Positions 960-54,405 of a stretch of 64,000 bases of DNA are shown piece by piece. The notes beneath the pieces were generated by a model. The model was given only the letters and a program-made list of their open reading frames with translations, made no database searches and was not told the origin of the DNA. The DNA is from a virus. Location of the stretch: positions 1 through 64,000 of the IMG/VR virus record IMGVR_UViG_3300014208_000032, one strand, 5' to 3'. Position numbers and translations under genes: made by a program. How positions within the stretch are numbered: the first letter of the stretch is position 1; every line of letters begins with the position of its first letter.

Positions 960-2897
960 TTATTCAGTAAAAGTAGTTCCAGCAGGATCAACAAACATAG
1001 AAATTTCAATCTCTTCAATTGTGTTCATTGGAACAATTCTTACAATACCCTTCATTAAATTCTGCTGAACAACATCAGGAGTGTTTACAGAAGCATCAAT
1101 AATAACCTGATATCTGTCAATTCCACCAGACAAACGAATTGGTTCAAGAATTCCATCAATGCTTGCTTTGGCTTTTGCCCAAATAGATGGGGAGTTTGGT
1201 TCAAAAAGAAGTTCATCCATTTTTACTTTAACTCTCTTCTTGATCTCATTAAGAGTCATTCTCACGTTAATTCTATTAAGGGCAGAAGTTTCTCTTTGTA
1301 GAGTTTTCTGACCATAAATCGTAATACCTTTGGAATTAAAATTCACGATTGGATTAACTGCATTTGTTTCACCATAAAGAGCATCTCTTTCAGATTTATC
1401 TGGAGAGTAACGAATACCAGCAACTGACAATTTACCTCTCTTGTCACCAGCAGGGGCAAACCACATACCATAATCCTGGGCATTTTTTACTAACTTCTCT
1501 GCCAAGAAAATAGAGGATGGGAAATAAGCATAATTGGCTGCAACGGTGTCATAATCTTTTTCCCAAGGCCAGTACATAGCTCCATAAGAAGTATTAAAGG
1601 CCGCAGTCCTTCCGTTAACAGCTCCATAACCATTATGATAATTTACAACACTTGTTACTGTTATGGCATCAACAGCTTCTGGAGTATCTACCAAGAAAAT
1701 TGCCTCTCCACGAGTTGCGCAAAGAACAAGACATCTGTCTTTAACAGTTTCTAACATAGAAGCTTCTGGAGCAATAAGAATATGAAAATCAGAACTTTCA
1801 ACATTTGCAAAAACACCAGCATCCAAAGCGGCGATATGATAAGTTTGTGCATCATTTACGTTTGCAGGTAGTCCATCAGTTGCAGTTCCAACAAGAAACG
1901 TATATTCTTGTGTGGCAGGAACCGTTCCAACACCCCAAGCAAATTCTGTCGTATAACCAGTTACTATTGAGTTGTTAAACGTCTCGGTAATCAAAGTTCC
2001 CACAGAAATTAATGCAGATCCACCATTATCAGTTACTCTGTTAATTACGGTTGAAAAATAATTCAAGTCCGTTGATACAAAAGAAACATCTCTAAAAATT
2101 TCTTTTACTTCGCCAAAATAACTCACGTAAATATTGTGAACATAAGTTCCATCAAACTGAACAACAGATTCTTTAAGAAGTTTTAAATTAGCAGCATAAG
2201 TTCCACCCTCTTTTGCAAAGAAGGTAATTTTTTGTTCAGCTCCAACAGCATTAACCCCATCGGTTTTTGTTGCTACGTTAACAACTGCTAGTGTAGTTCC
2301 AGTATCAACAAATGTAAACGCAGGAACATAAAGCCCGGCAAGTGTTTTTGTCATCACAAAACCAGAACCAGTAATTGCAGCAGGGACAGTCCAAGTAGCT
2401 CCCAACCCAGTTGAAACGTTTGCTATGGCTACACGAACTTTTTCAGCAACAACAGCAGTAGTATCAAGAGCCGCAACTGTAACAGCAATACCAGCAACAG
2501 TAATAATTCCGGCGTTTGTTGCAGCAGTGGTTACAGTGATCGTTTGTGTGGCCGCAACTGCGGGAATAAAGAAAGCATTGTTTGCAGCTGCTGTAAAATC
2601 AACAACCAACGAACCAAGATTTGTTTTGGTTTCAGATGTTGTCTTGTCACCAACACGAACAAAATAAAGTTTATTAGTTACCGCAAGTAACTTTTTAACA
2701 GCAAAATAAGTATTAGTAAAACTAGTTGGAGCTTTACCAAAAATATCTTCAAATTCTTTCAAACTTCTGATTAGAATTTCTTCATTAAATACACCTTTTG
2801 TGGCATAACCCATAATAGCAACGCCAACTCCAGTGTCATAAACGGTATACGCACTTCTATCTTGTTCAATAATTCTTGTAGTAGGGCTTCCTGTCAT
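960..2897 (-). CDS. Tail sheath protein (T4 gp18-like)
   Basis: 'WFAPAGDKRG', 'ERDALY..NAVNPI', 'IYGQKTLQ..SALNRINVR', 'LFEPN' are sheath C-terminal signatures. Confidence 0.95.
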   Translation of the reverse strand: MTGSPTTRIIEQDRSAYTVYDTGVGVAIMGYATKGVFNEEILIRSLKEFEDIFGKAPTSFTNTYFAVKKLLAVTNKLYFVRVGDKTTSETKTNLGSLVVDFTAAANNAFFIPAVAATQTITVTTAATNAGIITVAGIAVTVAALDTTAVVAEKVRVAIANVSTGLGATWTVPAAITGSGFVMTKTLAGLYVPAFTFVDTGTTLAVVNVATKTDGVNAVGAEQKITFFAKEGGTYAANLKLLKESVVQFDGTYVHNIYVSYFGEVKEIFRDVSFVSTDLNYFSTVINRVTDNGGSALISVGTLITETFNNSIVTGYTTEFAWGVGTVPATQEYTFLVGTATDGLPANVNDAQTYHIAALDAGVFANVESSDFHILIAPEASMLETVKDRCLVLCATRGEAIFLVDTPEAVDAITVTSVVNYHNGYGAVNGRTAAFNTSYGAMYWPWEKDYDTVAANYAYFPSSIFLAEKLVKNAQDYGMWFAPAGDKRGKLSVAGIRYSPDKSERDALYGETNAVNPIVNFNSKGITIYGQKTLQRETSALNRINVRMTLNEIKKRVKVKMDELLFEPNSPSIWAKAKASIDGILEPIRLSGGIDRYQVIIDASVNTPDVVQQNLMKGIVRIVPMNTIEEIEISMFVDPAGTTFTE

Positions 2898-2930
2898 AAT
2901 TAATCTCCTTTGATTTAATAATATTACACT

Positions 2931-2965
2931 ATTATCTTTTCTTTAATTTAAAAAATGGACTTTTT
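2931..2965 (-). promoter_or_regulatory. Late promoter AAGATAAT plus upstream AAAAAGTCCATTTTT element
   Basis: AAGATAAT at 2931-2938; 15-mer at 2951-2965 identical to 16389-16403 upstream of the MCP gene. Confidence 0.55.
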
Positions 2966-2970
2966 CGTTA

Positions 2971-3585
2971 TCACAAATCATATCCAATAACAACTGTTTC
3001 AATAATTCCAAAATTCTCTATATATTCGAATGGTAAATAAGCACGAGGGATTGTTATATCAAACCCCCACCTTACTGTTCTGTTTTCGGTATCTGCTGGT
3101 TCTAGGTTTGTTTCGTTAACAATGTTTGATATTTCAATTTCACACCACTGTTCATTAACCTTGGTAGCAAACTTTCTGTTTTTAGGGGCAGCAGAAAATA
3201 ATTGATAATTTAAAATATCTGCATCTTGTTGGTTAACAGTAAACATTGTTCCTTTGAATATTAATTTACAAGGAAGAGGGTGACGATATTCTCCCCATTT
3301 TCCATTTTCTCCCTCGCTCATCAAGGTAACATATCCATTAGGAACTTCTCCCTGAGTGTTTATTTCAAATGAAGAATAATTAAATGTAATTGTTGGGTTC
3401 ATAGTGCTTCCGTTATAAAAAGGAACAACTATTTTTGCATAAGCTCGTGTTATTGGTGCAAAAAATATTTGAACATTCTGCTCTTCTGGGAAATAAGATA
3501 GGTGGGCTGTATTCACTAGAAAACTTTTAATAGCAATTGCATAATCCACAAATAGTGGCCATTCTAATTTATTTTTTAAACTCAT
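2971..3585 (-). CDS. Tail terminator / sheath stabilizer (T4 gp15-like)
   Basis: Position between neck and sheath genes; 'PTITF', 'PLP.KL.F', 'R.VRW.F.IT' pattern. Confidence 0.55.
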   Translation of the reverse strand: MSLKNKLEWPLFVDYAIAIKSFLVNTAHLSYFPEEQNVQIFFAPITRAYAKIVVPFYNGSTMNPTITFNYSSFEINTQGEVPNGYVTLMSEGENGKWGEYRHPLPCKLIFKGTMFTVNQQDADILNYQLFSAAPKNRKFATKVNEQWCEIEISNIVNETNLEPADTENRTVRWGFDITIPRAYLPFEYIENFGIIETVVIGYDL

Positions 3586-3842: not shown

Positions 3843-4639
3843 TATCCCTCCAAATACATATTGCCACGCAATTTGTATTCTCTTGATTTGGCTCTTTCTG
3901 TCCACTGTTGTGGCAACCCAAGAACTTCAACATCAGCTCTTTGGGCAACTATATTAAACGTAGAATATTCCCAACCTATATTTCCAGAAGGGCGAACATC
4001 CATCACTTCATAAAAAATATATTTATTAGACATTACAACATCGCCATTTTCTATGCTGTCTGTTATATTAGAATAAACAGAATCTCTTATTTCAAGATTG
4101 AAAACTGTTTGCAAAATATTTTTCTCTTCAAAATCTGGAATGTTTCGACTTAAATCATTCTCTCCCGTCAGAATAGAAATCCATCCAGAAAAAGTTGCAA
4201 TTTTATCTCTAACTTTTACTAGAGTGTTGTTTGTAGCAATATCAACTATTTGGGTAGTGCCTCCGACAACCAATAAAATTTGACCATTCAGTTTACTTAT
4301 TTTAGGAATGCCAGAACCATTATATTCAACTGAAAGTATTGCTTTATTCTTATTTCTTAAGTCAGAATGAATAGATACCATTCTTTGAACATTTACTTGA
4401 AACGTAAATTCTTTATCTTCAACTGTCCTATATGGTTCGAGGTTTAAAACATTTCTAAATGAATTATCTAAATGAACTACTTTCATTTTAAAAGGAGGCA
4501 AATAAACACGAGATTTTCTTTCTTCGCCATAAATTGGATGAATTTTTGTTTCTTTTTTGTCCAACTTAAAAACCAAGAGTTCTGGTCCATAAGCTTCAAT
4601 ATAAGAGTCGTTTAAATAACTAACCCAATCAGACAACAT
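3842..4639 (-). CDS. Neck protein (T4 gp14-like)
   Basis: 'IEAYG', 'HPIYGE', 'NGDVV...FYEV' pattern; adjacent to gp13-like gene. Confidence 0.55.
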   Translation of the reverse strand: MLSDWVSYLNDSYIEAYGPELLVFKLDKKETKIHPIYGEERKSRVYLPPFKMKVVHLDNSFRNVLNLEPYRTVEDKEFTFQVNVQRMVSIHSDLRNKNKAILSVEYNGSGIPKISKLNGQILLVVGGTTQIVDIATNNTLVKVRDKIATFSGWISILTGENDLSRNIPDFEEKNILQTVFNLEIRDSVYSNITDSIENGDVVMSNKYIFYEVMDVRPSGNIGWEYSTFNIVAQRADVEVLGLPQQWTERAKSREYKLRGNMYLEG

Positions 4640-7742: not shown

Positions 7743-7922
7743 CTATACTCCGTTTAAAATTTCTGTAATTCTAATTTGTTTTTTTCCGCTTGATGTCATA
7801 TATATGATAGTACCAACACAACTAAATTTTTCTTTTGTGAACGATATATCATTATCTGTTCTAAACGTAATTTCAATATCCTTCTTGGAAGGATCGTATT
7901 CAACAACATCACCTATATTCAT
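7743..7922 (-). CDS. Small hypothetical protein (MNIGDVVEYDPS..., ~59 aa, below track cutoff)
   Basis: Open frame directly after late promoter 7926-7933, coupled to the gp13-like gene. Confidence 0.55.
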   Translation of the reverse strand: MNIGDVVEYDPSKKDIEITFRTDNDISFTKEKFSCVGTIIYMTSSGKKQIRITEILNGV

Positions 7923-7951
7923 AATATTAACTTTTCAAAGGAGAAAAAAGA

Positions 7952-19801: not shown

Positions 19802-19826
19802 TTTTTAACTCCTTAAAGTTTCTAAT

Positions 19827-19834
19827 ATTAACTT
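19827..19834 (-). promoter_or_regulatory. Putative late promoter AAGTTAAT for prohead protease
   Basis: Recurrent motif, immediately after a terminator. Confidence 0.55.
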
Positions 19835-19845
19835 TTCTAATAAAG

Positions 19846-28657: not shown

Positions 28658-28661
28658 ATAA

Positions 28662-28865
28662 TTAACTTTTCAATTGGTCTATATACCAATATCTTTGACA
28701 TTCATTACAAAATGTTTTGTTTTTAACATCTCTAAAATCCCTATTTTCTAAAACAGGGATATCTTGGATTGATGTTTCGGCAAGATTTAGGGACCCACAA
28801 GGGCATCTCTTTTTTTTTGCATAGTAGCGAAATTTTATATCTTTTTGTTGTTGTTCAGACAGCAT
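28662..28865 (-). CDS. Zinc-ribbon protein
   Basis: CPCGS...CNEC. Confidence 0.6.
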   Translation of the reverse strand: MLSEQQQKDIKFRYYAKKKRCPCGSLNLAETSIQDIPVLENRDFRDVKNKTFCNECQRYWYIDQLKS

Positions 28866-36310: not shown

Positions 36311-36316
36311 AATAGT

Positions 36317-36343
36317 ATTATCTTTTCAAGCTGCCAAGATAAT
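36317..36343. promoter_or_regulatory. Back-to-back divergent late promoters (AAGATAAT on each strand)
   Basis: 36317-36324 (-) and 36336-36343 (+). Confidence 0.55.
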
Positions 36344-46818: not shown

Positions 46819-46842
46819 ATTATCTTGACTTGAAAAGTTAAT
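46819..46842. promoter_or_regulatory. Back-to-back divergent leaderless late promoters
   Basis: AAGATAAT (-) at 46819-26 and AAGTTAAT (+) at 46835-42, each 3 nt before an ATG. Confidence 0.65.
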
Positions 46843-46845
46843 ACT

Positions 46846-47679
46846 ATGAAAAGCTTTAAAGAACATTTACAAAGAAAATTAGACGAAAACGTATTAGATC
46901 CTATTAATAAAACAAAATCAAAAGAACTTTGGAGTACATCCGGTAATCTTCTTCCAGACGCTAAGAGAACGCTTTTGACGAACTTTTACTCCTGGTGGGA
47001 TAAGTTTGGGTTTGAACGCAAAGATATAAAAAAAATGCTTATCCTGGGCAGTATAACGGGCTTTCAATACAATGAAGCTTCAGATATTGATGTTAATGTT
47101 GTGGTTAATCTTTCTAAAGAAAAAATATCTTCTGTTTATAAATTATTACCAGGAAATGTTAAGATTGGGAAACATCCTTGTAATTATTATCTTACAGCAG
47201 ATGAATATGATGCTGGAAAAGCAGACGGGGTTTATAACGTAGTAAAAGATGTTTGGGAAAAAGAAGTAAAAAAAATAGACCCAAAAATTGATAACAGTTA
47301 TGTTCTTGAAGTTACTAAATTTTTTATGGACGGAATTGATGGGCGAATTGCTGAATATGAGAGAGATAAGAAAGAACTTGATATGTTTTATCAATATCTT
47401 AAAGACGCAGATCTTGAAGTTAATAAAAATGATTTAGAAAAAAGTATAGCTCAAAAAAAAGGCGAGATCGAAGCTGATATTCAGTCGCTAGTTATTGGTT
47501 ATCATGTTATCAAAGCTTTTAGATGGGAAGCATTTGTAAAAGATGCTAAACCAATAGAATTACAAATTCAAATAAAAAGCCCTAACCTTACGTTGAACAA
47601 TTTAATTTATAAAACACTAGAAAGGTTTGGATATTTTGATAAACTCCACTCCGTTTTGGAAAAAGAAGGAAAACTATGA
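46846..47679 (+). CDS. Pol beta-superfamily nucleotidyltransferase (MKSFKEHL..LDE tag)
   Basis: 'ILGSITGFQY..ASDIDVNVV' GS..DxD motif. Confidence 0.75.
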   Translation: MKSFKEHLQRKLDENVLDPINKTKSKELWSTSGNLLPDAKRTLLTNFYSWWDKFGFERKDIKKMLILGSITGFQYNEASDIDVNVVVNLSKEKISSVYKLLPGNVKIGKHPCNYYLTADEYDAGKADGVYNVVKDVWEKEVKKIDPKIDNSYVLEVTKFFMDGIDGRIAEYERDKKELDMFYQYLKDADLEVNKNDLEKSIAQKKGEIEADIQSLVIGYHVIKAFRWEAFVKDAKPIELQIQIKSPNLTLNNLIYKTLERFGYFDKLHSVLEKEGKL

Positions 47680-49381: not shown

Positions 49382-52300
49382 TTAAGTTGCTACTCCAGTG
49401 ATTGTATGATAAAGTGAATCTGCAGCATATTCTGTGTTTAAATAATAGGCACGAAAAGTATAAGAAGTTGATGTTATAGCAGTTATTCCCGTGTTTAATC
49501 CTATATTAGCTCCCCAAACCCCAGGACTTGTTTCTTGTTGTATAACCCTTGTTGATGCTCCTGGCGGGGCGTTGGCATCTGCTAATACAATTTGGCTTCC
49601 ACCAACTAATGTTGTAAAACTCATTGCCGGAGTAATAATAGGTGTTGGTATTTCTAAATTACTAATCACTCTTATCTTCTTAACCTCAACTATTTGTTCA
49701 GATATATTATATCGCATCCCATAAATTCTTTTAAGTTCGCTAGTTGTTGTGTCATAATAAAAAACATCGCCAGTAGTCACACCAGTTTCGTCAAGAATAT
49801 TTCCCCAAACAGGAGCAGCGCCATTAGTTCCAGTTCCTGTTTCGGTTAAGAATTTTTTAACTGTTGTGGTGTTTGGAGAAAGAAGTGTTGTAACGTCTAC
49901 ATTACTTTGATATGGAATTGACCCTAGAAGTGTTGTGTTGTTCCCACCAACTAAATTTGTTGATTTTATTGTGGTTCCTGTTATTGTTCCAGTAACAGTT
50001 AATGTGTTATTAATGGTAGTTGCTGTATCAATTGTTGTTTTTTCATATTCATTAGATAATAAAACAATATCTATATTGGTTCCGCTATATTGTGGTACAT
50101 ATATTTTATTTAAATTTATAAAAGAAATGTCATGATTAACGTTTGTAAGAATATTTTCTGTTGTTTTTGAGTTAGTACTAAGTTCTACAATATCCATGTT
50201 TGTAGAGTTTCTGAGTGGTAGATAAAGTTTTCCATTATAAATATGAGATGTATATTTATCATTACTAGATAGAGTTGAAATTGTAGTAACAGAATTATTA
50301 CTTAAATCAACAATATCCATATTTACTCCACCACTTTGTGGTAAATAAAGTTTTCCATTATAAATCTGAGATGTGAATCTATTATGGTTGGAAATTAATG
50401 TTAGTGTAGTAACAGAATTATTACTTAAATCTACAACATCCGCAATATTTCCACCTGTTAAAATAGAAGAGTGTGGTAAATAAAGTTTTCCATTATAAAT
50501 CTGAGATGTATATCTATTGTGGTTTGATAGAGTTGAAATTGTAGTAACAGAATTATTACTTAAATCAACAATATCCATATTTACTCCACCACTTTGTGGT
50601 AAATAAAGTTTTCCATTATAAATTTGAGATGTGTTTTTTGTAAAAGCTGTTAAAGTTGAAATTGTAGTAACAGAATTATTACTTAAATCAACGATGTCCA
50701 TATTTACTCCACCGCTTTGTGGTAAATAAAGTTTCCCATTATAAATTTGAGATGTGGAAGTAATCATACTTGTTAATCCAGAAATTGTGGAAAATGAGTT
50801 ATCACTTAAGTCCATAATAACAAAATTTACACCAAAAGCATTTGTTATGTAAACTTTGTTGTTATACAAATGAGCATCTTTGTTTGTAAAAGAAGGAAGA
50901 GTGGCAAGTGAAGTTTTTGTTGGTGGTGATAACATGTCAATAACAAGTCCAATTTTAACATCACTTCTTGTTTCTAGTTTGTTGGTTGTAGAATCCCAAA
51001 CAGCAACTCCCATATCAACAGGAAGAGCTTGAACGACAGAGTTTCCAATAGAAGCTGTATCAAATCTATTAGTTGCAGCGTTCCAGATTGCCACTCCACC
51101 ATCTAATGGCGTGTTTTCTCTTGTAGCAATTGCTTGCAAAGAAGTTTTCACAATTCCATCAACTGAAGTTCCCACTTTAAAAGTATCAGTTTCTTCATCG
51201 AATACAATATAATAACTATCTAAGCCAATTCCACGTTGAATTTCTATACCAGCCATATTGGTAGATAAAGCTGTTCCGTTTTTGTTTAATGTTAAAATTG
51301 GATCTGTAGAATTTAAGGAATTTACATTCACATTAGTAGTAGCTACAACAATATCAACAGAAGTTGGTGTAATCTCCATAATTTTAGAAGCGCCAATTCC
51401 CGTGCCAGTCCAAAATTGAATTCTTGAATCTGGATCATCAAAAAGATTAAAAAGAGTAGTAATACTTCCATCTCCATTTTCTTTACTTACTATTGTGTTT
51501 GCTACATTTCCAGCATTAAATTGGGTTTCTCTGGCAAAAAAATCTCTTTGATCGTAAGTGTTTGCTAAAACATAAGTCCCAGGAGTTCCTGTAATTTCTA
51601 CAAAATAAAAATCATTAGTAAAAACAGATGGATCTGGTGCTCCAGCCCAAGTAGTTGAAACAAGAACAACTTCCCCTAGTTCATTAGTAGAAATTAAATA
51701 TTTTCCAGCAACAGGAATTGGAATAATTCCTAAAGAAGGAATTAAACTAACATCTCCAGAAAATGCAGTAAATATTTTATTAAGATAAAGATTACTTCTT
51801 AAGATAGAAGCATTGATATAAACAATAAGTTCAAAAGATTTAGCAAAACCAACTGTATCATCTTCCCAGTTTGTTAAATCATCAACCCCAGTTCCTATAA
51901 AATAATCATAAGTTCCATCAATAAAAGAACGAGCTTTAAATTTACCATTAGCAGTAAGTTTAACCTCAAAATTATAATTACCAAATTCAATATCGTTGGT
52001 TGGAAAAATAATTTTATTAAGAATTCTGGAAAATAAATCAACATCAATATAATTATTGAAAAATACATTATTGGGAATTACTTTGCCAACCAAATCTGCT
52101 CTTGCTATATCAATTTCTGTTTTTCTGGAAACACCAGCACCAGGGGATAAATAAAGAAACTGAATTCCATTTACTATCTCAAGAGAAAGATCAATATCAA
52201 AAATTGTATTTTTAAAAATACCGCCAGAAAAATTGAATACTGCACTCTGTTCTAAGAAATCAATTATTTTACCAACATTATAATTAATGTTTTCAATGGG

Positions 52301-52444
52301 TCTATTGATGGAGTAGGGAGTTCTGTAATCAATTTTCTCTAAAAATTCCAATCCGGGTATTATAGCATTAAGATCTTTGATTCCACTTCCGGTTGTTTTC
52401 TTTTTAAACATTATATTATTTCCTTTTGTTATTCCCACTGGCAT
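49382..52444 (-). CDS. Tail fibre/baseplate protein with a 7-blade beta-propeller repeat
   Basis: 1020 aa; 41-aa repeats; shares 'IATRE.TP.D' module with the 40048 fibre. Confidence 0.75.
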   Translation of the reverse strand: MPVGITKGNNIMFKKKTTGSGIKDLNAIIPGLEFLEKIDYRTPYSINRPIENINYNVGKIIDFLEQSAVFNFSGGIFKNTIFDIDLSLEIVNGIQFLYLSPGAGVSRKTEIDIARADLVGKVIPNNVFFNNYIDVDLFSRILNKIIFPTNDIEFGNYNFEVKLTANGKFKARSFIDGTYDYFIGTGVDDLTNWEDDTVGFAKSFELIVYINASILRSNLYLNKIFTAFSGDVSLIPSLGIIPIPVAGKYLISTNELGEVVLVSTTWAGAPDPSVFTNDFYFVEITGTPGTYVLANTYDQRDFFARETQFNAGNVANTIVSKENGDGSITTLFNLFDDPDSRIQFWTGTGIGASKIMEITPTSVDIVVATTNVNVNSLNSTDPILTLNKNGTALSTNMAGIEIQRGIGLDSYYIVFDEETDTFKVGTSVDGIVKTSLQAIATRENTPLDGGVAIWNAATNRFDTASIGNSVVQALPVDMGVAVWDSTTNKLETRSDVKIGLVIDMLSPPTKTSLATLPSFTNKDAHLYNNKVYITNAFGVNFVIMDLSDNSFSTISGLTSMITSTSQIYNGKLYLPQSGGVNMDIVDLSNNSVTTISTLTAFTKNTSQIYNGKLYLPQSGGVNMDIVDLSNNSVTTISTLSNHNRYTSQIYNGKLYLPHSSILTGGNIADVVDLSNNSVTTLTLISNHNRFTSQIYNGKLYLPQSGGVNMDIVDLSNNSVTTISTLSSNDKYTSHIYNGKLYLPLRNSTNMDIVELSTNSKTTENILTNVNHDISFINLNKIYVPQYSGTNIDIVLLSNEYEKTTIDTATTINNTLTVTGTITGTTIKSTNLVGGNNTTLLGSIPYQSNVDVTTLLSPNTTTVKKFLTETGTGTNGAAPVWGNILDETGVTTGDVFYYDTTTSELKRIYGMRYNISEQIVEVKKIRVISNLEIPTPIITPAMSFTTLVGGSQIVLADANAPPGASTRVIQQETSPGVWGANIGLNTGITAITSTSYTFRAYYLNTEYAADSLYHTITGVAT
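50095..50880. repeat. 123-bp tandem repeats (one 135-bp unit)
   Basis: 'TGTGGTAAATAAAGTTTTCCATTATAAAT' core or close variants at 50214, 50337, 50472, 50595 and 50718. Confidence 0.9.
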
Positions 52445-52875
52445 TATAGATTTTCCTTGTCTTTTTTAATTAAATCTTGTATTTCTGTCTTTCCAAAAAA
52501 CCAGTCGTTTTCGTTTTTTGTTTTAAGATTTTTGACATACATTTTATTATATCTTCTCAAAAGAGGGAGAGCATCGGGGAAAAAATATTTAATTCTTTTA
52601 TATTTTTCTTCTTTATTAACAGATAACATTCTGGCGAAACTATCAATTTCATCAATTGCTCTCATTGCGTATTTTTTATTATCATAATAATTTACATTAA
52701 AACCAAGAATATCACTTCTTTTGCCATAGGTTTTTTGGTGAGGTTGTCCTGGATATTCAAAATCCAATACTTTTACTTTTGGGTTAGGATCTTGCTTAAA
52801 ATTGTCGTATTTGAATTTAACAAGTACTGCATCTTCGCTGAGAACAATTTCTTCATATAATTCTTGAAACTTCAT
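52444..52875 (-). CDS. Possible DNA end-protector (T4 gp2-like), MKFQELYEE tag
   Basis: 'FKY....DP.P', 'ILGFNVNY', 'LRRYN' pattern. Confidence 0.4.
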   Translation of the reverse strand: MKFQELYEEIVLSEDAVLVKFKYDNFKQDPNPKVKVLDFEYPGQPHQKTYGKRSDILGFNVNYYDNKKYAMRAIDEIDSFARMLSVNKEEKYKRIKYFFPDALPLLRRYNKMYVKNLKTKNENDWFFGKTEIQDLIKKDKENL

Positions 52876-53010
52876 AATATTATCTTTTCAAGTGAACTAA
52901 TTACCCATTAAAGACAGGTAATATTTTTGTTTCATAGACAAAACTTGTTTTTTGAATAAACAAAACCCTTGGTTTTTATCTCCACAAACTTATATTCGGG
53001 TTATTCCAAC
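52872..53010 (-). ncRNA. Predicted TnpB omega/reRNA (scaffold plus ~20-nt guide)
   Basis: IS200/605-type right end: hairpin TTACCTGT-cttta-ATGGGTAA (G-U pairs) then TTAGTTCAC (ends 52892); guide TTGAAAAGATAATATTATGA. Confidence 0.55.
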
Positions 53011-54152
53011 CCTATTTTTTTTAAACCATAATTTTTAAGATTGATCCCAGCGTTTTGATCTCGATCAATCTCAAATCCACAACTCGGGCAACTAAAAATT
53101 CTATCTTTTAACATTAAATCTTTGTGAATAAATCCACACTTCGAACAAGTTTTAGATGAAGCAAACCATTTATCTGCTTCAATTAAAATCTTGTTATTCC
53201 AAAAAGTTTTATATTTAAGTTGTTGTAAAAACATACCATAACCTAAATCATTAATAGATTTTCCTAACTTTAAACACTGAGCCATTGCTCTTAAGTTAAT
53301 ATTTTCAACCACTATTACATCATTATCTTTTACGAGTTTTGTAGATAGTTTTTGGGTAAAATCTTTTCTTTTGTTAGTAATTTTTTCAAATAATAAATTT
53401 ACTCTTAGTTGTGCTTTTTTTCTATTATTCGAGCCCTTCTGTTTTTTAGAAACTTTTCTTTGAAGAAATTTTAATTTCTTTTCGTTGTTTCTGTAAATCC
53501 TCTCATAAACAGGAGAACTTCCTTGATCATCTACAAAAAAAGAAGACATAGACATATCTAAACCCTTGGTTTTCAGGTTTTTACTTATGACAACTCCTTT
53601 TAGTATTAAATCTTGTTCAAAAATTATTGAGACAAAGTATTTTCCAGTTGGTGTTTTACTAACAGTAGCAGATTTTATTTCTCCTTTTAATTCTTTTCTT
53701 AAATCTCTAAAATTTATCCAACCAAGTTTTGGAAGTTTTATTTTTTTTGATTCAAAATCAATTTTAATATTTTCATTTGTAATTGTTGTTCTATAAGAAT
53801 CTTTTTTACCTTTTTTGTGAAACTTTGGAAAACCAGATTTTCCTTTACTTTTCCCAGAAATGGATTTAAAAAAGTTTTGATAAGCCGCAGATAAATCTCT
53901 TGAAGATTGTTGTAAAGAAATAGAATCCACTTCTTTTAAAAATTCAAACTCAGTTTTATATTCTTTTTCTGTTTTATATTTAAATTCAAACAATGCTCGT
54001 TTGTCATTTTTTAATATTTCATAGGTTTTAATTTTTTCGGCAAGCATTGCATTATAAATAAACCTTGAACAACCAATAGTTTTATTTATTAAAACTTCTT
54101 GTTCTTTATTTGGATAGATTCTTACTTTTAATGCTTTAATTATTAAACCCAT
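53001..54152 (-). CDS. tnpB: TnpB RNA-guided endonuclease (IS200/IS605 family, no tnpA)
   Basis: 'KVRIYPNKEQ..LINKTIGCSRFIYN' HTH; RuvC 'GLDM', 'VVENI', 'DRDQNAGINL'; CxxC..CxxC. Confidence 0.95.
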   Translation of the reverse strand: MGLIIKALKVRIYPNKEQEVLINKTIGCSRFIYNAMLAEKIKTYEILKNDKRALFEFKYKTEKEYKTEFEFLKEVDSISLQQSSRDLSAAYQNFFKSISGKSKGKSGFPKFHKKGKKDSYRTTITNENIKIDFESKKIKLPKLGWINFRDLRKELKGEIKSATVSKTPTGKYFVSIIFEQDLILKGVVISKNLKTKGLDMSMSSFFVDDQGSSPVYERIYRNNEKKLKFLQRKVSKKQKGSNNRKKAQLRVNLLFEKITNKRKDFTQKLSTKLVKDNDVIVVENINLRAMAQCLKLGKSINDLGYGMFLQQLKYKTFWNNKILIEADKWFASSKTCSKCGFIHKDLMLKDRIFSCPSCGFEIDRDQNAGINLKNYGLKKIGLE

Positions 54153-54157
54153 ATAAT

Positions 54158-54165
54158 ATTATCTT
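54158..54165 (-). promoter_or_regulatory. Late-promoter box AAGATAAT directly upstream of tnpB
   Basis: 5 nt before the ATG; no RBS. Confidence 0.55.
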
Positions 54166-54210
54166 TACGTCTTTTACAAAAGTTATTAAATTATTATACT
54201 TTGGTAAAAA

Positions 54211-54405
54211 TTATGCTAAAATATTTACTTTTGTTCCTAAATAGTTTTTTGATATTGCTTCGACTTCTTGGTCGGTTCTTTTTTCAAGCATAACAACCTT
54301 CTTTCTTTTAGAAAAAGAACTGTATAAAAATACTTGATTATACACAAAAGAGGCCACTTCATAGGAATTGTTGGAAATAATATATTCGTCAGTTAATATT
54401 GTCAT
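54211..54405 (-). CDS. Hypothetical protein
   Basis: 64-aa ORF. Confidence 0.4.
   Translation of the reverse strand: MTILTDEYIISNNSYEVASFVYNQVFLYSSFSKRKKVVMLEKRTDQEVEAISKNYLGTKVNILA

What the first reader, a model, noticed from the sequence alone, without database searches (positions are those of the whole stretch)
52872..54166. Stand-alone TnpB whose predicted guide is the phage's own late-promoter sequence
Seen: tnpB keeps all three RuvC acidic residues (GLD, VEN, DRD) and has no tnpA or visible left-end hairpin. It carries a phage late box (AAGATAAT) 5 nt before its ATG. An IS200/605-type right end (hairpin plus TTCAC, ending 52892) follows. The next bases, TTGAAAAGATAATATTATGAA, are the leaderless promoter and start of the downstream gene. 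Near-matches lie at other late promoters: 7918-7938 (20/21), 46830-46850 (19/21, preceded by TTGAC), 36316-36329 (14/14 seed) and 28661-28673 (12/13). A 14-bp AAAGATAATATTAT repeat (52874-87, 54153-66) brackets the cassette. Established: TnpB guides are taken from DNA just beyond the right end, and TTGAT is a known TAM. Inference: a domesticated, late-expressed RNA-guided nuclease that could act as a homing or competition weapon against relatives' late promoters, or bind many promoters. Caveat: insertion next to a promoter would give this guide by chance.
Basis: partly seen in the sequence, partly recalled or inferred. Interest (0 to 1): 0.8.

Follow-up and report, generated by a model that had tools for sequence, protein, structure and literature searches.

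The report
Transposase-less TnpB insertion beside phage promoter
An intact RNA-guided nuclease gene (TnpB) with its guide-RNA scaffold sits as a clean 1.3-kb insertion just upstream of a late promoter in an uncultured T4-like phage; a sister phage has that site empty, so it most likely behaves as a selfish homing element and not as a regulator of the phage's promoters.

Summary
Window 53001-54152(-) encodes an intact IS200/IS605-type TnpB: three Pfam domains, the RuvC D/E/D residues and the zinc ribbon. A guide-RNA (omegaRNA) scaffold with covariation support ends at TTCAC, window 52892. About 29 relatives share this right end and then diverge. The next bases are the leaderless late promoter and start codon of the downstream gene, and the listed near-matches at other promoters are real.

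- Two metagenomic sister contigs carry the two flanking genes with no tnpB. The stop codon, TATTTAA and then the exact 35-nt target follow each other directly. So this is a clean 1313-bp insertion, and position explains the guide.
- The lineage's target-adjacent motif (TAM) is TTTAT and its right-end motif is TTCAC, as in Geobacillus ISGst2. It is not TTGAT or TTGAC.
- None of the other promoter near-matches combines this TAM with an intact seed.
- No other copy has a promoter guide.

New points:
- This IS sublineage carries the phage's AAGATAAT box in front of tnpB, and in one relative also in front of tnpA.
- This copy has lost tnpA and the left-end hairpin, yet keeps TnpB under purifying selection and keeps the RNA stems through compensatory changes.

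Best reading: a transposase-independent, late-expressed homing cassette. The scan has reported similar filled/empty phage TnpB pairs on other DNA.

The parts
53001..54152 (-). tnpB CDS, 383 aa, intact RuvC D199/E283/D365 and CxxC...CxxC zinc ribbon. About 35 aa shorter at the C-terminus than relatives (415-426 aa).
54158..54165 (-). AAGATAAT late-type promoter box 5 nt upstream of the tnpB ATG. It is part of the IS-derived leader and is shared with copies C2, L018, L003 and L027.
54153..54203 (-). Remnant of the IS left part (51 nt). It aligns to the tnpB-proximal half of the left end of C2/L018. The first ~56 nt, including the left-end hairpin, are missing.
54204..54208 (-). Left junction TTTAC. 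The TTTA is shared by the phage flank (TTTAA in the empty allele) and by an IS-internal CTTTACAAA landmark, so it is the likely microhomology point of the left-end deletion.
52892..53026 (-). omegaRNA scaffold (covariance-model match, 121 bits), overlapping the tnpB 3' end and running to the right-end boundary.
52901..52921 (-). Subterminal right-end hairpin (loop TCTTTAA), which is also the terminal omegaRNA stem.
52892..52896 (-). Right-end motif TTCAC (TEM), last bases of the element.
52872..52891 (-). Predicted 16-20-nt guide template TTGAAAAGATAATATTATGA. It contains the late promoter box (52886-52879) and the ATG (52875-52873) of the downstream gene.
52444..52875 (-). Downstream 143-aa late gene, right flank of the insertion. 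Its orthologue directly follows the 64-aa gene in sister contigs.
54211..54405 (-). Upstream 64-aa gene, left flank of the insertion. It is intact, with stop codon at 54213-54211.

Best explanation
An ISGst2-like IS200/IS605 element (TAM TTTAT, right-end motif TTCAC) inserted into the 7-nt spacer between a 64-aa gene and the leaderless late promoter of a 143-aa gene. It later lost tnpA and its left-end hairpin. What remains is a 1313-bp cassette: phage-type late promoter box, tnpB, omegaRNA scaffold and right end.

Inferred mechanism:
1. Late in infection, transcription starts at the AAGATAAT box and runs through tnpB and the scaffold into the flank.
2. This yields an omegaRNA whose guide is UUGAAAAGAUAAUAUU(AUGA).
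3. In its own genome the match is preceded by TTCAC, which is not a TAM, so the occupied site is immune.
4. In a co-infecting relative with the uninterrupted site (TTTAN followed by the same sequence), TnpB would cut.
5. The very active recombination of T4-like phages would then copy the cassette in (homing), or the rival allele would be lost (marker exclusion).

The guide equals a promoter because the only tolerated insertion point at this locus lies 2 nt upstream of the promoter motif. It is not evidence that promoters are the intended targets.

Shown: the anatomy, the boundaries, the filled/empty polymorphism and the conservation. Inferred: expression, RNA 3' end, TAM specificity, cleavage and homing.
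For: - TnpB is intact and close to ISDra2 TnpB. dN/dS is 0.12-0.14 against C2, L003 and L018.
- The omegaRNA scaffold is conserved: 21 of 29 pairs show compensatory changes. This copy has its own double compensation, TTTGT...ACAAA against the consensus CCTGT...GCAGG. The covariance model hits 43 places in related loci.
- The right-end boundary at 52892 is fixed by 29 copies with unrelated flanks.
- Empty-site alleles L211 and L212 read: 64-aa gene stop, TATTTAA, then 35 nt identical to the window's right flank. blastn breaks exactly at window 54205 and 52891.
- TAM TTTAT precedes the left ends of C2, L018, L003, L019 and L006, three of them directly after unrelated terminator hairpins. This matches the experimental ISGst2 TAM TTTAT and TEM TTCAC (PMC10055086).
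- There is a reduction series. L003 has the left end, tnpA (Y1_Tnp, 121 bits), tnpB and the right end. C2 and L018 have no tnpA. This copy has no tnpA and no left-end hairpin.
- The promoter box is part of the IS in five copies.
- TnpA-independent spread by cleavage of an orthologous empty site is discussed for plasmids and phages in PMC13565253.
Against: - The only empty allele found has TTTAA, one base off the consensus TAM. For GstTnpB2, single-base TAM changes abolish cleavage, so that particular allele may be resistant.
- Its flanks are only 72-85% identical to the window, which is low for efficient recombination.
- There are no RNA or activity data.
- This TnpB lacks the ~35-aa C-terminal tail of its relatives.
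- The AT-rich scaffold does not fold better than shuffled sequence on its own, z = -0.45.
- Purifying selection and the compensatory changes could predate arrival in this phage.
- By a rough count, only about 1% of intergenic TTTAT/TTTAN sites lie within 8 nt upstream of a late box. Landing here is therefore somewhat unusual, although 1 case among ~30 copies is not significant.
Confidence: 0.75

Rival explanations
1. Inert relic. The cassette is the immobilised leftover of an ordinary IS insertion and currently does nothing: no relevant targets, no homing. It has simply not yet decayed.
For: - tnpA and the left-end hairpin are gone.
- The right-end 'DNA guide' GGAAG has changed to AAAAT.
- The C-terminal tail is missing.
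- The scaffold has drifted to 28% GC and is not detectably stable alone.
- The only empty allele has an off-consensus TAM and diverged flanks.
Against: - The ORF is fully open, the catalytic and zinc residues are intact, and dN/dS is about 0.13.
- RNA stems are kept by compensatory double changes while the transposase signals decayed. That pattern is expected if TnpB and omegaRNA are under selection and transposition is not.
- A correctly placed late promoter box is retained.
Confidence: 0.13
2. Promoter-directed function. Because the guide is the extended late-promoter consensus, the TnpB-omegaRNA complex binds or cuts several late promoters. These could be in this phage (regulation) or in competitors (a weapon).
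For: - Five promoters share TTGAAAAG[AT]TAAT.
- One of them, 19839(-), upstream of the prohead protease gene, has a perfect TTTAT and a 14/16 match.
- ChIP data for GstTnpB2 show TAM-dependent, mismatch-tolerant binding (PMC10055086).
- Nuclease-dead TnpB relatives (TldR) of phages do target promoters (10.1101/2023.11.30.569447, listed).
Against: - The nuclease is intact, unlike TldR.
- 4 of the 5 near-matches lack any TTTAT-like TAM: CTCCT, GCAGC, ACCAA and TTGAC.
- The sites with a TAM-like motif carry a mismatch at guide position 9, inside the seed.
- None of ~29 related copies has a promoter-like guide, so there is no recurrence.
- The exact empty-site allele explains the guide by position.
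Confidence: 0.07

Closest known systems
ISGst2 (Geobacillus stearothermophilus IS200/IS605 element) with TnpB2 and omegaRNA; Meers et al. 2023, PMC10055086
   Same: - Same end motifs: TAM TTTAT at the left end (seen in relatives here) and TTCAC as the last bases of the right end.
- The guide is taken from DNA just beyond the right end.
- The occupied site is protected because the right-end motif differs from the TAM at positions 3 and 5.
- Homing-type maintenance model.
   Different: - Here the element lives in a lytic-type T4-like phage.
- It has lost tnpA and the left-end hairpin.
- It carries a phage late-promoter box directly at the tnpB start.
- Protein identity to GstTnpB2 was not measured, because no sequence was at hand.
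ISDra2 TnpB/omegaRNA (Deinococcus radiodurans; PDB 8h1j, 8bf8, 8exa)
   Same: Closest solved structure, E 3e-68 over residues 6-381. Same domain order, catalytic D/E/D and zinc ribbon. The omegaRNA overlaps the 3' end of tnpB.
   Different: The ISDra2 TAM is TTGAT (from my own knowledge), whereas this lineage uses TTTAT. ISDra2 is a complete tnpA-tnpB element in a bacterial chromosome.
Free-standing homing endonucleases of T-even phages (Seg and Mob; intronless homing and marker exclusion), reviewed in PMC13565253
   Same: A selfish nuclease gene wedged between two conserved phage genes, present in one phage and absent at the same site in a relative. It is expected to spread through cleavage of the empty allele and recombinational repair during co-infection.
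   Different: Recognition would be by guide RNA plus TAM rather than by protein. Self and non-self are told apart by the insertion itself, as in intron homing, and not by substitutions. It has no GIY-YIG or HNH domain.
TldR, nuclease-dead TnpB-like RNA-guided transcription factors of prophages (10.1101/2023.11.30.569447)
   Same: A phage-borne TnpB relative whose guide matches a promoter.
   Different: TldR has an inactivated RuvC and targets a distant host promoter. Here RuvC is intact and the only perfect match is the adjacent insertion flank.

Membership tests
IS200/IS605-family TnpB (RNA-guided endonuclease) | Domain architecture: N-terminal HTH, OrfB_IS605 (RuvC) and C-terminal zinc-ribbon TNB | tested here: met
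   Pfam PF12323, PF01385 and PF07282 are all above cutoff. NCBIfam guided_TnpB scores 282 bits against a cutoff of 100. IS200_TnpB scores 367 bits, below its strict exception cutoff of 425.
IS200/IS605-family TnpB (RNA-guided endonuclease) | RuvC catalytic D-E-D triad | tested here: met
   D199, E283 and D365 align with the catalytic residues of ISDra2 TnpB and are invariant among 8 relatives.
IS200/IS605-family TnpB (RNA-guided endonuclease) | omegaRNA scaffold overlapping the tnpB 3' end and terminating at the right-end boundary | tested here: met
   Alignment and RNAalifold: 21 of 29 pairs with compensatory changes. The covariance model scores 121 bits in the window and hits 43 places in related loci. 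The single-sequence fold is not significant.
IS200/IS605-family TnpB (RNA-guided endonuclease) | RNA-guided, TAM-dependent DNA cleavage | not testable with these tools
   Needs a biochemical or plasmid-interference assay.
Complete IS200/IS605 insertion sequence | Right end with subterminal hairpin and conserved terminal motif | tested here: met
   Hairpin 52921-52901 followed by TTAGTTCAC. 29 relatives share this end.
Complete IS200/IS605 insertion sequence | Left end with subterminal hairpin preceded by the TAM | tested here: not met
   Hairpin scan and blastn-short with the left ends of L018, C2 and L003 find only the C2 left end at genome 125229-125312. The 51-nt leader aligns only to the part 3' of the hairpin.
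Complete IS200/IS605 insertion sequence | Y1 (HUH) transposase TnpA | tested here: not met
   No PF01797 match in the 159.8-kb record, while controls were positive. tblastn with the L003 TnpA gives E > 2. The record is about 69% complete, so a copy elsewhere is not excluded.
ISGst2-like subgroup (TAM TTTAT / right-end motif TTCAC) | TTCAC as the last five bases of the right end | tested here: met
   The published motif is in PMC10055086.
ISGst2-like subgroup (TAM TTTAT / right-end motif TTCAC) | TTTAT immediately 5' of the left end | tested here: inconclusive
   Met in relatives C2, L018, L003, L019 and L006. In this copy the original junction is lost: it reads TTTAC here and TTTAA in the empty allele.
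TldR (nuclease-dead TnpB-derived transcription factor) | Loss of RuvC catalytic residues | tested here: not met
   All three residues are present.
TldR (nuclease-dead TnpB-derived transcription factor) | Guide complementary to a promoter at a separate locus with a cognate TAM | tested here: not met
   The only perfect match is the adjacent flank. Other promoters lack the TAM or carry seed mismatches.
Homing element (works-like test, not homology) | Presence/absence polymorphism at an otherwise conserved site, with the target intact in the empty allele | tested here: met
   L211 and L212 lack the 1313-bp insert and keep 35 nt identical to the guide region.

The most novel reading that the evidence does not exclude
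This IS lineage has specialised on a clade of T4-like phages. It carries their late promoter box in front of tnpB, and in one relative in front of tnpA too. Here it has become a transposase-independent, RNA-guided 'intronless homing' cassette. Because its guide is the extended late-promoter consensus plus a leaderless start codon, it could also cut or block any TTTAT-flanked late promoter of competing relatives, so it would act as a weapon between phages as well as a homing element.
Probability: 0.08. Interest if true: 0.75.

Novelty: new member of a known kind. Interest (0 to 1): 0.36.

Why it matters
TnpB is understood as a guide-RNA homing nuclease that keeps its transposon in place. Spread into co-infecting phages without any transposase has so far been argued mostly in theory and shown on plasmids. 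This locus offers three things:
- a natural filled/empty pair in related T4-like phages;
- a copy in which the transposase signals have decayed while the nuclease and the RNA structure are kept;
- an IS lineage that has taken on the phage's own late promoter.

Together these make RNA-guided homing between phages directly testable. For promoter biology the result is negative: the promoter-shaped guide is a consequence of where the element landed.

Tried and rejected
- IMG/VR scans with the downstream 143-aa and 1020-aa proteins found no relatives. The empty site came from the protein-cluster route instead.
- An exact 16-mer guide search in IMG/VR gave 113 matching stretches, 114 matches. None was followed by ATG, which is consistent with chance matches in AT-rich DNA.
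- More distant orthologues of the 143-aa gene (L213-L220) are translationally coupled or have other promoter variants, so they say nothing about the target.
- Rfam has no family covering the scaffold at gathering threshold.
- Nucleotide search of the phage collection gave only short tnpB-internal hits.
- The single-sequence fold of the scaffold is not better than shuffles, z = -0.45. Structural support therefore rests on covariation only.
- The idea that the 14-bp flanking repeat is a target-site duplication or recombination scar was rejected. The tnpB-side copy is IS-internal and shared with other contigs, and IS200/IS605 elements make no duplications (established knowledge).
- TTGAC or TTGAT as the TAM was rejected in favour of TTTAT.
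- The empty site for the second copy (C2) was sought. Sister contigs L222 and L223 lack the insertion, but the intergenic DNA has diverged too much to read a TAM plus target.

Full report
**What is there.**
- The ORF 53001..54152(-) encodes a 383-aa protein. It matches the three Pfam domains of IS200/IS605 TnpB and the NCBIfam TnpB models.
- It aligns over residues 6-381 with ISDra2 TnpB structures at E about 3e-68. GLD, VEN and DRD lie on the catalytic D/E/D, and both CxxC pairs are present. These residues are invariant in eight relatives.
- The record holding the window is a 159.8-kb virus contig, about 69% complete. It has a second tnpB copy (C2) at 124054-125208(-), 78% identical in protein.
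- No Y1 transposase is detectable in the record.
- Neighbouring window ORFs are tail sheath, portal, terminase, protease and tail fibre. The terminase is distantly T4-like.

**Right end and guide RNA.**
- The two copies in this genome both end in a hairpin followed by ATTAGTTCAC, and are unrelated after that.
- Eleven IMG/VR loci, four genome loci and 80 metagenome loci with relatives were fetched.
- An alignment of the last ~190 nt of nine copies gives a consensus structure in which 21 of 29 pairs show compensatory changes.
- A covariance model built from it finds 43 places in related loci. In the 29 best, the element ends with hairpin (loop TCTTTAG) + (T)AGTTCAC, followed by unrelated DNA.
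- The right end at window 52892 is therefore secure. The predicted guide template is TTGAAAAGATAATATT(ATGA).
- In this copy the inner stem has changed on both sides (TTTGT...ACAAA instead of CCTGT...GCAGG), so the RNA pairing is kept.
- The scaffold alone does not fold better than shuffled sequence, so the support is comparative.

**The promoter motif.**
- AAG[AT]TAAT followed by 3-5 nt and an ATG that opens a long ORF occurs at about 19 gene starts across the record, mostly structural genes.
I checked only its position relative to ORFs, not its timing.

**The decisive comparison.**
- Homologues of the downstream 143-aa protein led to two contigs, L211 and L212. There the 64-aa gene is followed after 23 nt by the 143-aa gene, with no tnpB.
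- The junction reads: stop codon, TATTTAA, then TTGAAAAGATAATATTATGAAG... It is identical to the window's right flank for 35 nt.
- blastn breaks exactly at window 54205 on the left and 52891 on the right.
- The window therefore carries a clean 1313-bp insertion, 52892-54204, placed 2 nt upstream of the promoter motif. The flanking genes and the promoter are untouched.
- With only 7 nt between stop codon and promoter, this is essentially the only harmless insertion point at this locus. Any element landing there must have the promoter as its guide.

**TAM.**
- Left ends of relatives have a conserved layout: about 18-19 nt, then ..CCAGAAAA, a hairpin with loop TCTTTAG, then ATGAATGG...
- They are preceded by TTTAT in C2, L018, L003, L019 and L006. 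In three of these the TTTAT is the tail of an unrelated terminator hairpin, which marks it as flank.
- Other copies show TTTAC, TTTAA, TTCAT or TTGAC.
- TTTAT as TAM and TTCAC as right-end motif are exactly the experimentally defined pair of ISGst2/TnpB2. There, single-base TAM changes abolish cleavage, and binding is TAM-dependent but tolerant of mismatches (PMC10055086).
- With this TAM, the own genome has no site combining a TAM and an intact seed. The best are 19839(-), with TTTAT and mismatches at guide positions 2 and 9, and 46830(+), with TTGAC and mismatches at 9 and 15.
- The occupied site itself is preceded by TTCAC.
- The sister allele has TTTAA, one base off consensus, so whether it can be cut is open.

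**State of this copy.**
- L003, from another myovirus contig, sits just after a tail-sheath gene. It is a complete element: TTTAT, left-end hairpin, a divergent 136-aa TnpA (Y1_Tnp, 121 bits), tnpB and the right end.
- C2 and L018 have lost tnpA but keep both ends.
- The window copy keeps only the 51 nt nearest tnpB. Its left junction TTTAC(C)AAAG aligns to an IS-internal CTTTACAAAC just 3' of the hairpin in C2, L018 and L003. The first ~56 nt, with the hairpin, were most likely deleted at a TTTA microhomology (inference).
- The stretch 5' of the right-end hairpin also changed, from GGAAG in relatives to AAAAT. I read this stretch as the transposase's DNA guide, by analogy with ISGst2 and IS608.
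- In contrast, the ORF has dN/dS of 0.12-0.14 against three relatives and the RNA stems are compensated. Transposase signals decayed while nuclease and RNA were kept.

**IS-borne promoter.**
- Most relatives have the leader ACTAATTAAAT-ATG.
- C2, L018 and L027 have about 20 extra nt containing AAGATAAT between that leader and the ATG. The window copy and L003 also have the box.
- In L003, tnpA also starts 2 nt after an AAGATAAT box, and another gene of that contig uses the motif.
This sublineage appears adapted to the transcription system of these phages.

**Chance.**
- By a rough ORF-based count, 1 of 179 intergenic TTTAT sites and 5 of 461 TTTAN sites lie within 8 nt upstream of a late box.
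- One promoter-guide among about 30 examined copies is unremarkable, especially for a case picked because it looked odd.

**Verdict.**
- The best-supported reading is a known kind of element (ISGst2-like IS200/IS605 TnpB/omegaRNA), reduced to a transposase-independent cassette that probably persists by homing between co-infecting phages. It works like the free-standing homing endonucleases of T-even phages (PMC13565253).
- Regulation or attack of many promoters is not supported.
- Similar filled/empty TnpB pairs in phages were already reported by this scan on other DNA.
- Expression, RNA ends, TAM preference and cleavage remain inferred.

Noticed in passing
same genome, outside the window: G000 123940-125312 (locus L002/L221): Second tnpB copy (C2, 419 aa, 78% identical) with both ends intact. 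TTTAT precedes its left end directly after a terminator hairpin, and its right flank is ACGCTACTTAAC... Sister contigs L222 and L223 have the two flanking genes abutting without it, but the intergenic DNA has diverged too much to read the target.
   Followed up: partly
L003:1860-3661 (IMGVR_UViG_3300033562_002835): Complete IS200/IS605 element downstream of a tail-sheath gene in a related phage contig. tnpA and tnpB are divergent, and each starts 2-5 nt after an AAGATAAT box, so this IS appears to use phage late promoters for both genes.
   Followed up: partly
window 19819-19844 (-): The late promoter upstream of the prohead protease gene is preceded by a perfect TTTAT and matches 14 of the first 16 guide positions (mismatches at 2 and 9). 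It is the best candidate off-target in the phage's own genome.
   Followed up: no
L004:~2880-2900 and 4248-4255: The 8-mer TACAACAG occurs both just outside the degenerate left part and immediately after the right end of a related tnpB element. No explanation found.
   Followed up: no
L008:~2900-2960 and 4230-4280: A more distant tnpB (61% identical) is flanked by reverse-complementary 12-mers (GGAATTATGTAC / GTACATAATTCC) next to ATTGAC...GTCAAT hairpins. This end architecture differs from the TTCAC family.
   Followed up: no
window 50230-50750, inside ORF 49382..52444(-): A short query matched at about 123-135-nt intervals (50241, 50364, 50499, 50622, 50745) in a blastn-short run. This suggests a ~41-45-aa tandem repeat in the 1020-aa protein, which has a weak DUF4915 hit.
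   Followed up: no
L014 (Paceibacterota MAG contig JBBACS010000018.1); L015 and L016 (Promethearchaeota MAG contigs): Relatives of this TnpB with the same omegaRNA and right-end architecture (61% and 48-49% identity) occur on contigs binned to a CPR bacterium and to Asgard archaea. These could be mis-binned virus DNA or a hint at hosts.
   Followed up: no
L006:~2745-3000 and L004 upstream region: A truncated tnpA remnant lies between the left-end hairpin and tnpB on the opposite strand; its C-terminal residues read ...FWSDGFFACSIGEASDETIRKYIESQG. This is another stage of tnpA loss in the 72-73% identity group.
   Followed up: no
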